64,000 nucleotides of DNA from Escherichia coli (GTDB lineage Bacteria; Pseudomonadota; Gammaproteobacteria; Enterobacterales; Enterobacteriaceae), in NCBI RefSeq assembly GCF_044324785.1, contig NZ_CP172127.1, one strand, 5' to 3'. Position 1 is the first letter of the stretch; the number at the start of each line of letters is the position of its first letter. Under the pieces are notes generated by a model. The model saw only the letters and a list, made by a program, of their open reading frames with translations, searched no databases and was not told the DNA's origin. The position numbers and the translations under genes are program-made. Positions 18,657 through 18,997 of the stretch are shown here, piece by piece.

Positions 18657-18946
18657 CTATTTCTTCTCTGTAATTTTTACACTGTTTTCCAACTGCTTGA
18701 TGCTGACCTGCGGGGTCGGCAACTTAATACAACCATTTTGGTGGTTTCAACGAAATGGTCAGATGCAGCTTGATTGCTGGCTTCGCACGCTTGAGTCGCG
18801 CGGGCCAGTACCTTTTGAAAATTGCGCCAGTCCCGATAATCCAGTAACGGTGCCAATTCTCTCGCTGACCAAAATTCTTGCCCTTCAGTGCCATAATGCC
18901 GTATTTCTTCAAAAGGTTGATGATGTTCGTTCATTGCCCACTCCAT
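18657..18946 (-). pseudogene. dinD: dinD remnant: N-terminal ~69 codons joined out of frame to the last ~20 codons by an internal deletion
   Basis: Frame A encodes MNEHHQPFEEIRHYGTEGQEFWSARELAPLLDYRDW...TTKMVVL then 15 junk codons and stop; a +1 frame of the same DNA encodes PTPQVSIKQLENSVKITEKK-stop (DinD-like C-terminus) ending at 18657. Confidence 0.55.
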
Positions 18947-18977
18947 GTGATATCGATTGCAAGGAAAGTAAGTCTAC

Positions 18978-18997
18978 AACTGTGTTTATATACAGTT
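18978..18997. promoter_or_regulatory. LexA (SOS) box upstream of dinD remnant
   Basis: AACTGTGTTTATATACAGTT = CTGT-N8-ACAG with AT-rich spacer, 32-50 nt upstream of the dinD start on the minus strand. Confidence 0.55.

What the first reader, a model, noticed from the sequence alone, without database searches (positions are those of the whole stretch)
18657..18997. dinD reduced to an out-of-frame deletion remnant that keeps its LexA box
The minus strand encodes a DinD-like N-terminus (MNEHHQPFEEIRHYGTEGQEFW...TTKMVVL), then 15 non-matching codons and a stop. A +1 frame of the same stretch encodes the DinD-like C-terminus (…PTPQVSIKQLENSVKITEKK-stop). That pattern fits an internal deletion of roughly 0.55 kb whose length is not a multiple of three. 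The SOS box is intact, so a truncated peptide may still be SOS-induced; the island also encodes its own antirepressor-like protein.
Basis: partly seen in the sequence, partly recalled or inferred. Interest (0 to 1): 0.4.

Follow-up and report, generated by a model that had tools for sequence, protein, structure and literature searches.

The report
Dead dinD gene keeping SOS switch
This is an ordinary dead gene: a single 547-base internal deletion destroyed the DNA-damage-inducible gene dinD and left its LexA-controlled switch intact, and the same lesion is already present, and flagged as a pseudogene, in many public E. coli genomes.

Summary
On the minus strand, window 18657-18997 holds the dinD LexA box, ribosome-binding site and start codon. 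Then come 70 native DinD codons, a deletion junction at 18725|18724, 15 frameshifted codons and a stop. The last 21 DinD codons lie one frame over. Alignment with intact dinD maps one 547-bp deletion (547 mod 3 = 1) with no microhomology at the junction.

The product is 85 aa. It keeps only 59 of 96 Bro-N profile positions and none of the C-terminal 200 residues, so DinD function is almost certainly lost. Continued SOS-induced transcription is expected but untested.

The allele is not private to this window:
- The identical junction occurs in 41 of 5,426 complete E. coli genomes. RefSeq annotates it there as two pseudogene fragments.
- The exact 85-aa ORF is indexed in about 2,000 blocks of the public assembly collection.

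The deletion is independent of the adjacent 20.7-kb integrase-bearing island:
- All five deletion genomes examined, and the window's nearest relative found (99.9% identical backbone), lack the island.
- About 374 genomes carry the island end next to an intact dinD.

The deletion haplotype sits on several different flanking haplotypes, so it has been moved by homologous recombination. dinD is also absent or frameshifted in about 13% of E. coli genomes. Interest is low.

The parts
18978..18997 (-). LexA (SOS) box AACTGTATATAAACACAGTT, with the CTGT-N8-ACAG core at 18980-18995
   Evidence: Sequence and pattern hit. It is identical to the box of the intact-dinD alleles MS14385 and N12 and has one T>C change relative to K-12. 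The K-12 dinD box has heterology index 2.2, one of the tightest in the regulon (PMC11228462).
18932..18946 (-). Translation start region: GGAG ribosome-binding site inside ATGGAGTGGGCAATG. The annotated DinD start ATG is at 18934-18932. An in-frame upstream ATG lies at 18946-18944.
   Evidence: The region is identical to intact alleles. RefSeq starts DinD at MNEHH.
18725..18934 (-). Native 5' part of dinD: codons 1-70 (MNEHH...KMVVL), the first part of the Bro-N domain
   Evidence: Pfam Bro-N matches profile positions 1-59 of 96 at 30 bits. NCBIfam DinD equivalog NF008573 scores 107.9 bits against a cut-off of 242.
18724..18725 (-). Deletion junction (TATTA|AGTTGCC). 547 bp of intact dinD (nt 211-757, codons 71 to the first base of codon 253) are missing. 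There is no microhomology at the junction.
   Evidence: Alignments. The identical junction occurs in 41 of 5,426 complete E. coli genomes.
18677..18724 (-). Frameshifted tail: 15 unrelated codons (SCRPRRSASSSWKTV) and a TAA stop
18657..18724 (-). Retained 3' end of dinD (68 nt: last 2 nt of codon 253, 21 codons LPTPQVSIKQLENSVKITEKK, TAG), now out of frame
   Evidence: tblastn E 1e-7.
18690..18705 (-). 16-nt core CAGCATCAAGCAGTTG, complementary to tisAB RNA, retained in the remnant transcript
   Evidence: Exact single match in the window. The complementarity is described in PMC2577331, which found no effect of tisAB on dinD mRNA.
18421..18656 (-). dinD-yicG intergenic region. It carries a different haplotype from that of the other deletion-bearing genomes, so a recombination breakpoint lies at about 18634-18663.
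   Evidence: Mismatch maps.
19156..19174 (-). Island-end direct repeat CAGATCCAACATCGAATAA, a copy of the yicC 3' end (att-like). Context, not part of the lesion.
   Evidence: Its partner CAGATCCAGAATATCGAATAA lies at 39847-39867, at the true yicC stop.
19175..39846 (-). About 20.7-kb integrase-bearing island between yicC and the dinD remnant. Context: it was acquired independently of the deletion.
   Evidence: Pfam hits. It is absent from L017 and from the five deletion-bearing complete genomes examined.

Best explanation
The locus is a dinD pseudogene made by one historical 547-bp internal deletion. The junction has no microhomology, which points to illegitimate recombination, but the mechanism is not recoverable from the sequence.

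What the lesion does:
- It removes codons 71-252 and shifts the reading frame.
- The only possible product is an 85-aa polypeptide: 70 native residues plus 15 unrelated ones.
- That product lacks the last 40% of the Bro-N domain and the whole C-terminal part of DinD. The RecA-filament-modulating activity reported for DinD is therefore inferred to be lost.
- The upstream region, the strong LexA operator, the ribosome-binding site and the start codon are unchanged. LexA should still bind there, and DNA damage should still induce a short transcript and a probably unstable peptide (inferred, not tested).

History of the allele:
- It arose once, on a common dinD haplotype.
- Homologous recombination has since placed it on several flanking haplotypes.
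- It was already present in the window's lineage before the neighbouring 20.7-kb island integrated at the yicC 3' end.
For: Shown directly:
- A single 547-bp gap against three intact alleles, with flanks 97-100% identical.
- Frames and stops as described.
- Intact DinD has Bro-N at aa 10-103. The remnant matches only profile positions 1-59 of 96 and scores 107.9 bits against the 242-bit cut-off of the DinD equivalog model.
- No second dinD in the window.
- The identical junction in 41 of 5,426 complete genomes, annotated by RefSeq as 'incomplete' pseudogene fragments.
- The exact 85-aa ORF is indexed in 1,967 blocks of the public assembly collection.

Independence from the island:
- PCN033, 1190, VTB96933v, 19AR0646 and MS1685 have yicC directly next to the remnant.
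- L017, with 4 mismatches to the window in 6.5 kb, has the remnant, the same retron reverse transcriptase gene and no island.
- No complete genome combines the island end with the deletion, whereas about 374 combine it with intact dinD.

Recombination:
- Against PCN033 the window has 0 mismatches over 18635-19112, where about 6.5 are expected (Poisson P = 0.0015), but 11 mismatches in the adjacent 214 bp.
- Against MS14385 the pattern is reversed.

Dispensability of dinD:
- The K-12 deletion mutant is viable and the gene is described as dispensable (PMC2577331).
- dinD is absent from about 681 genomes and carries a 10-bp frameshift in 12 more.

Strength of the K-12 operator and its SOS induction: PMC11228462 and PMC11002266.
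Against: - Nothing contradicts pseudogenisation.
- Loss of function is inferred from domain truncation, not measured.
- The consensus promoter scan found no sigma-70-like site in the region. Promoter integrity therefore rests on sequence identity to intact alleles, not on an identified -35/-10 pair.
- The box carries a T>C change relative to K-12 whose effect on LexA affinity is unknown, although intact alleles share it.
- Near-zero diversity of the remnant across lineages (0-2 substitutions in 290 bp) could reflect constraint rather than recent spread. Loci L008-L017 were also selected by exact protein identity, which biases that count.
Confidence: 0.93

Rival explanations
1. The remnant is retained because it still does something. 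It could act as an SOS-induced short RNA that keeps the 16-nt tisAB-complementary core, as a LexA-titrating operator, or as a half-Bro-N micro-protein.
For: - Promoter region, LexA box, ribosome-binding site, start codon and the tisAB-complementary 16-mer are all intact.
- The remnant shows 0-2 substitutions across lineages whose flanks differ by 1-5%.
- The allele has spread onto several backgrounds.
- A dinD/uxaA double mutant changes the UV sensitisation caused by tisAB overexpression (PMC2577331).
Against: - Low diversity is equally expected for a young allele spread by recombination.
- The 1190-type sub-haplotype carries a substitution inside the 16-mer (position 18693).
- The same paper could not show any tisAB effect on dinD mRNA.
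- The Bro-N domain is cut at 59 of 96 profile positions.
- dinD is entirely absent, operator included, from about 12.5% of genomes.
Confidence: 0.05
2. The deletion was caused by, or is mechanistically linked to, integration or rearrangement of the adjacent island. Candidate causes are integrase or IS2 activity, or an imprecise excision.
For: In the window the island ends only about 240 bp upstream of the dinD start and carries an IS2 and an integrase. Three other public assemblies (L013-L015) also combine the remnant with an element at this site.
Against: - The deletion lies wholly inside dinD, about 450 bp from the att-like repeat, and the promoter region between them is intact.
- All five deletion-bearing complete genomes examined, and the near-identical relative L017, have no island.
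- About 374 genomes have the island end with intact dinD and none has it with the deletion. About 2.8 would be expected by chance, so there is no association either way.
Confidence: 0.01
3. The deletion is an assembly or sequencing artefact of this window.
For: None beyond the general possibility.
Against: An identical junction occurs in 41 independently finished genomes and in about 2,000 blocks of the public assembly collection.
Confidence: 0.005

Closest known systems
E. coli K-12 dinD (pcsA, b3645), the LexA-regulated DNA-damage-inducible protein D
   Same: Same chromosomal position between yicC and yicG. It has the same upstream region, with the LexA box at the same distance from the start. 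The first 11 and the last 21 codons are identical.
   Different: 547 bp (codons 71-252) are missing and the frame is broken. The N-terminal segment belongs to the other of two allelic classes, with 38 of 71 residues different in aa 12-82. The box has C instead of T at position 14.
RefSeq pseudogene pair in E. coli PCN033 (PPECC33_RS19910 'BRO family protein, missing C-terminus' and PPECC33_RS29690 'DNA replication protein DnaD, missing N-terminus'), with the same pair in 40 other complete genomes
   Same: Identical deletion junction and, for PCN033, identical sequence over window 18635-19112.
   Different: Those genomes have yicC directly upstream with no island, and a different dinD-yicG intergenic haplotype. 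The RefSeq labels do not recognise the two pieces as one internally deleted dinD, and the 'DnaD' label appears to be a mislabel.
Other natural dinD lesions: the 10-bp frameshift allele (for example Z0117EC0036 and A0 34/86) and the dinD-less yicC-yicG haplotype (for example STLEFF_47)
   Same: All are natural loss of dinD in E. coli, which shows that the gene is dispensable.
   Different: They are different events. The frameshift allele keeps the full gene length. The dinD-less haplotype lacks the promoter and LexA box as well, with about 77 bp in place of about 1.16 kb.
BRO-family / DinD-like proteins of phages and phage satellites
   Same: Intact DinD has a Bro-N domain. Full-length homologues at 52-63% identity occur in Streptococcus satellite phages and human-gut phage contigs.
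   Different: The remnant keeps only part of the Bro-N domain. It is chromosomal and flanked by core genes.

Membership tests
DinD (NCBIfam NF008573, equivalog) | Full-length match above the curated cut-off (242 bits) | tested here: not met
   The remnant ORF scores 107.9 bits over model positions 6-81 of 288. Intact alleles score 488-504 bits.
DinD (NCBIfam NF008573, equivalog) | Orthologous position between yicC and yicG, with nucleotide continuity to intact dinD on both sides | tested here: met
   The flanks of the gap are 97-100% identical to intact dinD loci.
DinD (NCBIfam NF008573, equivalog) | Uninterrupted 274-codon reading frame | tested here: not met
   A 547-bp deletion, a frameshift and a stop after 85 codons.
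Bro-N domain (Pfam PF02498) | Complete domain (profile of 96 positions) | tested here: not met
   The remnant matches profile positions 1-59 only. Its 30.0 bits still exceed the gathering score of 25.6. Intact DinD matches positions 1-86 to 1-88.
LexA-regulated (SOS) operator | CTGT-N8-ACAG palindrome close to the consensus TACTGTATATATATACAGTA | tested here: met
   AACTGTATATAAACACAGTT at 18978-18997 matches the consensus at 16 of 20 positions (consensus from established knowledge). K-12 dinD matches at 17 of 20.
LexA-regulated (SOS) operator | Same position relative to the promoter and start codon as in the experimentally SOS-induced K-12 gene | tested here: met
   Gap-free alignment from the box to the ATG. 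K-12 dinD is induced in a LexA-dependent manner (PMC11228462; PMC11002266).
LexA-regulated (SOS) operator | LexA binding and damage-inducible transcription of this allele | not testable with these tools
   This needs an EMSA or ChIP, and RNA measurement with and without DNA damage, in a strain carrying the allele.

The most novel reading that the evidence does not exclude
The remnant is not inert. Because it keeps one of the tightest LexA operators of the regulon and the 16-nt tisAB-complementary core, it could persist as an SOS-induced short RNA or LexA sink that tunes tisB/SOS behaviour. Alternatively, loss of the RecA-inhibiting DinD could itself be advantageous, which would explain why this one allele has been spread by recombination onto several backgrounds.
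Probability: 0.05. Interest if true: 0.4.

Novelty: already known. Interest (0 to 1): 0.12.

Why it matters
It matters little on its own. The result documents that dinD, a classical SOS gene whose product is reported to help remove RecA filaments, is naturally dispensable. It is absent, frameshifted or internally deleted in roughly 13% of finished E. coli genomes.

There are three practical points:
- Strains of this type lack DinD even though automated annotation sometimes still names the 85-aa ORF 'DNA damage-inducible protein D'.
- RefSeq's split annotation, 'BRO family protein' plus 'DNA replication protein DnaD', hides the fact that the two fragments are one internally deleted dinD.
- dinD-promoter reporters or SOS-regulon predictions based on LexA boxes would still score this locus as an SOS gene.

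Tried and rejected
- Consensus promoter and terminator scan of 18400-19300 found nothing on either strand. The promoter therefore could not be pinned to hexamers, and no terminator separates the remnant from yicG.
- Rfam search of 17500-20500 at a permissive threshold gave only a chance miRNA hit.
- PDB sequence search with intact DinD found no solved relative. Structure prediction was considered but not run, because the Pfam domain boundaries already show the truncation.
- Search of the phage collection with the whole island matched only IS2 and the P22-like ejection genes, so the island is not a described phage.
- Literature searches for a dinD pseudogene or deletion found no paper on this allele. 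One paper reports partial phage sequences inserted between yicC and dinD (PMC10050402).
- Microhomology at the deletion endpoints was looked for in three progenitor-like alleles and not found. There is only an offset GTT on both sides.
- The idea that the deletion travels with the island was tested and rejected.
- The idea that the window belongs to the same clone as the 41 complete genomes was rejected. Their backbones differ from the window by 1.2-1.4% over the flanking 4.5-5 kb.

Full report
**What is in the sequence**

The window is an E. coli-type chromosome in the reverse orientation to K-12. The gene order is ligB (16064-17752, +), yicG (17749-18420, -), the finding, a 20.7-kb island, and then yicC (39847-40710, -).

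On the minus strand the features upstream of and within the finding run as follows:
- the 20-mer AACTGTATATAAACACAGTT at 18978-18997;
- a GGAG ribosome-binding site;
- the DinD start ATG at 18934-18932;
- 70 codons of native DinD sequence (MNEHH...KMVVL, down to 18725);
- 15 unrelated codons (SCRPRRSASSSWKTV) and TAA at 18679-18677.

One frame over, 18724-18657 reads (E)LPTPQVSIKQLENSVKITEKK followed by TAG. This is the authentic DinD C-terminus.

**Mapping the lesion**

I aligned the region with the intact loci of strains MS14385 (L001), N12 (L019) and K-12 (L002). The alignment shows one gap of exactly 547 bp, which is nt 211-757 of the 825-nt gene. Since 547 = 3 x 182 + 1, the frame is broken.

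The junction is TATTA|AGTTGCC. In the intact alleles the left side reads TATTA|GGTTC and the right side GAGG|AGTTG. No base of microhomology exists at the junction. Only an offset GTT is shared. The mechanism of the deletion cannot be read from the sequence.

tblastn with intact DinD finds only these two pieces in the 64-kb window, so no intact copy lies elsewhere at the locus.

**Consequence for the protein**

Intact DinD is 274 aa, with a Bro-N domain at residues 10-103. It matches the NCBIfam DinD equivalog NF008573 at 488-504 bits.

The 85-aa remnant matches Bro-N profile positions 1-59 of 96. It scores 107.9 bits against the 242-bit cut-off of the DinD model. About 40% of the N-terminal domain and everything after it are gone.

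DinD is reported to modulate RecA by acting on postsynaptic filaments (Uranga et al. 2011, as cited in PMC4849656). Loss of that activity follows by inference from the truncation and was not measured here.

The frameshifted ORF stops only 20 nt before the native stop. No long untranslated tail is created.

**The regulatory region**

From the island boundary to the start codon the window differs at only 2-5 positions from the other deletion-bearing loci.
- It differs at 4 positions from allele N12, which has an intact dinD, and at 5 from Z0117, which carries a 10-bp frameshift.
- The LexA box is identical to that of the intact alleles MS14385 and N12.
- It differs from K-12 by T>C at position 14.

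The K-12 box has a heterology index of 2.2, among the lowest in the regulon. K-12 dinD is induced about 10-fold by AZT in a LexA-dependent way (PMC11228462) and about 16-22-fold (log2 fold change 4.2-4.5) by ciprofloxacin (PMC11002266).

Continued LexA binding and SOS-induced transcription of a short mRNA are therefore expected, but this is inference. A simple consensus scan found no sigma-70-like hexamer pair and no intrinsic terminator in 18400-19300. Rfam finds nothing credible there.

The remnant also keeps the 16-nt core CAGCATCAAGCAGTTG (18690-18705). PMC2577331 noted that this core is complementary to tisAB RNA. That paper could not show any effect of tisAB on dinD mRNA.

**Distribution**

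A 60-bp probe centred on the junction matches 41 of 5,426 complete E. coli genomes (0.76%), all at 100% identity. RefSeq annotates the locus in these genomes as two pseudogene fragments:
- 'BRO family protein, incomplete, missing C-terminus';
- 'DNA replication protein DnaD, incomplete, missing N-terminus'. This label on the 22-codon fragment looks like a mislabel.

The exact 85-aa sequence is indexed in 1,967 blocks of the public assembly collection and was seen on at least 1,000 contigs. It is often named 'DNA damage-inducible protein D'. The allele is thus already in public databases and already flagged as defective. Full-text searches found no paper about it.

**Relation to the island**

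The island (19175-39846) is bounded by an imperfect direct repeat of the yicC 3' end:
- CAGATCCAACATCGAATAA at 19156-19174;
- CAGATCCAGAATATCGAATAA at 39847-39867.

Its contents, are:
- a P4-type tyrosine integrase;
- an AntA/AntB antirepressor-domain protein;
- an Ash-family ORF;
- a DUF927/Toprim primase;
- P22-like ejection-protein genes;
- IS2;
- an M78 peptidase;
- a PerC-family regulator.

It does not.
- All five deletion-bearing complete genomes I opened have yicC immediately next to the remnant.
- A probe running from the island end across the junction finds no complete genome with both features. About 374 genomes have the island end with an intact dinD. With 41 deletion genomes, about 2.8 co-occurrences would be expected by chance, so there is neither association nor significant exclusion.
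- Locus L017 is the closest relative of the window that I found, with 4 mismatches in 6.5 kb and the same retron reverse transcriptase gene between slmA and pyrE. It has the remnant but no island. In the window's own lineage the deletion therefore came first and the island later.

The combination of remnant and island does exist elsewhere. L013 carries a related PerC/ejection-gene island, and L014 and L015 carry other elements that share about 90 bp of the right end. This fits a hot integration site being filled independently. Phage-like insertions with an integrase and attL/attR between yicC and dinD have been reported before (PMC10050402).

**Single origin and recombinational spread**

All carriers have the same junction. 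The surrounding sequence is mosaic.
- Against PCN033, the window has no mismatch over 18635-19112. About 6.5 would be expected at the regional divergence of 1.35% (Poisson P = 0.0015). Yet it has 11 mismatches in the adjacent 214 bp of the dinD-yicG spacer.
- Against MS14385, which has intact dinD and the island, the pattern is the mirror image: 0 mismatches in the spacer and 14 from 18663 onward.
- The common spacer haplotype of the other carriers is also that of N12 and Z0117. Their retained dinD segments are closest to the remnant, so the deletion arose on that haplotype.
- The window/L017 lineage has a recombination breakpoint at about 18634-18663. L011 shows a third spacer mixture.

The remnant itself shows 0-2 substitutions among carriers. 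However, L008-L017 were retrieved by exact protein identity, which biases this count.

**dinD is a frequently lost gene**

- About 681 of the 5,426 genomes match the probe only in about 140 bp upstream of yicG. In the one examined (STLEFF_47), yicC and yicG are adjacent, and about 77 bp replaces the roughly 1.16-kb dinD segment.
- Twelve genomes have the two junction flanks closer together than in intact dinD (8-18 bp shorter match spans). In the one examined, Z0117EC0036, the cause is a 10-bp deletion that RefSeq marks as 'frameshifted'.
- Other truncated DinD forms appear in the protein clusters.
- The K-12 deletion mutant is viable, and the gene is described as dispensable (PMC2577331).
- Full-length DinD homologues at 52-63% identity occur in Streptococcus satellite phages and gut phage contigs. 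This fits a gene of mobile-element ancestry that is only loosely fixed in E. coli.

**Rival readings**

- Functional remnant (RNA, LexA sink or micro-protein). This cannot be excluded, but it has no positive support beyond the retained signals, and I give it about 5%.
- Island-caused deletion. This is effectively refuted by the island-free carriers.
- Artefact. This is refuted by the many independent assemblies.

**Verdict**

The feature is an ordinary, already catalogued pseudogene allele of a dispensable SOS gene. Interest is low.

Noticed in passing
window 19175-39846: A 20.7-kb integrative island sits at the yicC 3' end, flanked by a 19-21-bp imperfect direct repeat. It carries a P4-type integrase (38405-39742), an AntA/AntB antirepressor-domain protein (35849-36682), an Ash-family ORF (34613-35680), a DUF927/Toprim primase (29894-32653), DUF2824 plus P22 gp7/gp20/gp16-like ejection genes (24473-29131), IS2 (21642-22915), an M78/capP-like peptidase (21072-21560) and PerC (19684-19971). 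No record in the phage collection covers it beyond IS2 and the ejection genes. A satellite-like backbone carrying only the ejection-protein block of a P22-like phage is an unusual mix.
   Followed up: partly
window 29323-29342 (minus strand): A second good LexA-box-like palindrome, AACTGTTGTTTTATACAGTT, lies inside the island. It comes immediately after a TATAAT and 13 nt upstream of a 53-aa ORF (29148-29309) that heads the DUF2824/ejection-gene block. The island may therefore have its own SOS-controlled promoter. About 0.6 CTGT-N8-ACAG hits are expected by chance in the window.
   Followed up: no
window 35072-35159 and 35222-35299 (minus strand): Rfam C4 antisense RNA (79.5 bits) and isrK Hfq-binding RNA (67.1 bits) both fall inside the long ORF that carries the Pfam Ash domain, downstream of the AntA-domain gene. 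Either the ORF is over-called, or the Ash model overlaps an RNA-based immunity region of the P1 immI type.
   Followed up: no
window 42546-43517 (+): A retron reverse transcriptase of the Ec107 type (PADLOC RT_Ec107-like, 437.8 bits) lies between pyrE and slmA. From memory, this is the position described for retron-Ec107. The near-identical relative L017 has it too. PCN033, K-12 and most other loci examined do not.
   Followed up: partly
dinD codons 12-82 (window 18725-18901 and the deleted part; L001/L002): Intact DinD exists in two sharply different N-terminal (Bro-N) allelic classes. K-12-type and window-type alleles differ at 38 of 71 residues in aa 12-82 but at only 6 of 203 elsewhere. 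Roughly half of complete genomes carry the window type. This looks like a recombined or diversifying cassette. The left end of the deletion lies inside it.
   Followed up: partly
L018 4924-5174 (STLEFF_47); identity band 80-90%: About 681 of 5,426 complete E. coli genomes appear to lack dinD altogether. In the one examined, yicC and yicG are adjacent, about 77 bp of unrelated sequence replaces the roughly 1.16-kb dinD segment, and the yicG-proximal flank is only about 89% identical. This suggests an old presence/absence polymorphism.
   Followed up: partly
L020 1331-2145 (Z0117EC0036) and 11 other genomes, including probiotic strain A0 34/86: There is an independent dinD lesion: a 10-bp deletion within the same interval. 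RefSeq annotates it as 'frameshifted' in the one genome examined.
   Followed up: partly
phage collection hits H226-H238: Full-length DinD homologues at 52-63% identity over about 95% of the length occur in Streptococcus satellite phages (Javan series, annotated as DinD) and in human-gut phage contigs. Two 'Campylobacter phage' records (A11a, A18a) hold an 84%-identical copy. That is the same identity as the K-12 allele, so these may be E. coli contamination.
   Followed up: no
RefSeq annotation of PCN033 and 40 other genomes (L003 20040-20108): PGAP labels the 22-codon C-terminal dinD fragment 'DNA replication protein DnaD'. It also splits one internally deleted gene into two unrelated-looking pseudogenes. 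This is an annotation error that propagates across genomes.
   Followed up: yes
L016 (metagenome scaffold), region equivalent to window 14700-16063: One deletion-bearing contig differs from the window at 108 of 1,364 positions (8%) on the gmk side, while ligB and yicG differ by only about 1-2%. This suggests an imported tract from a divergent Escherichia lineage next to the locus.
   Followed up: no
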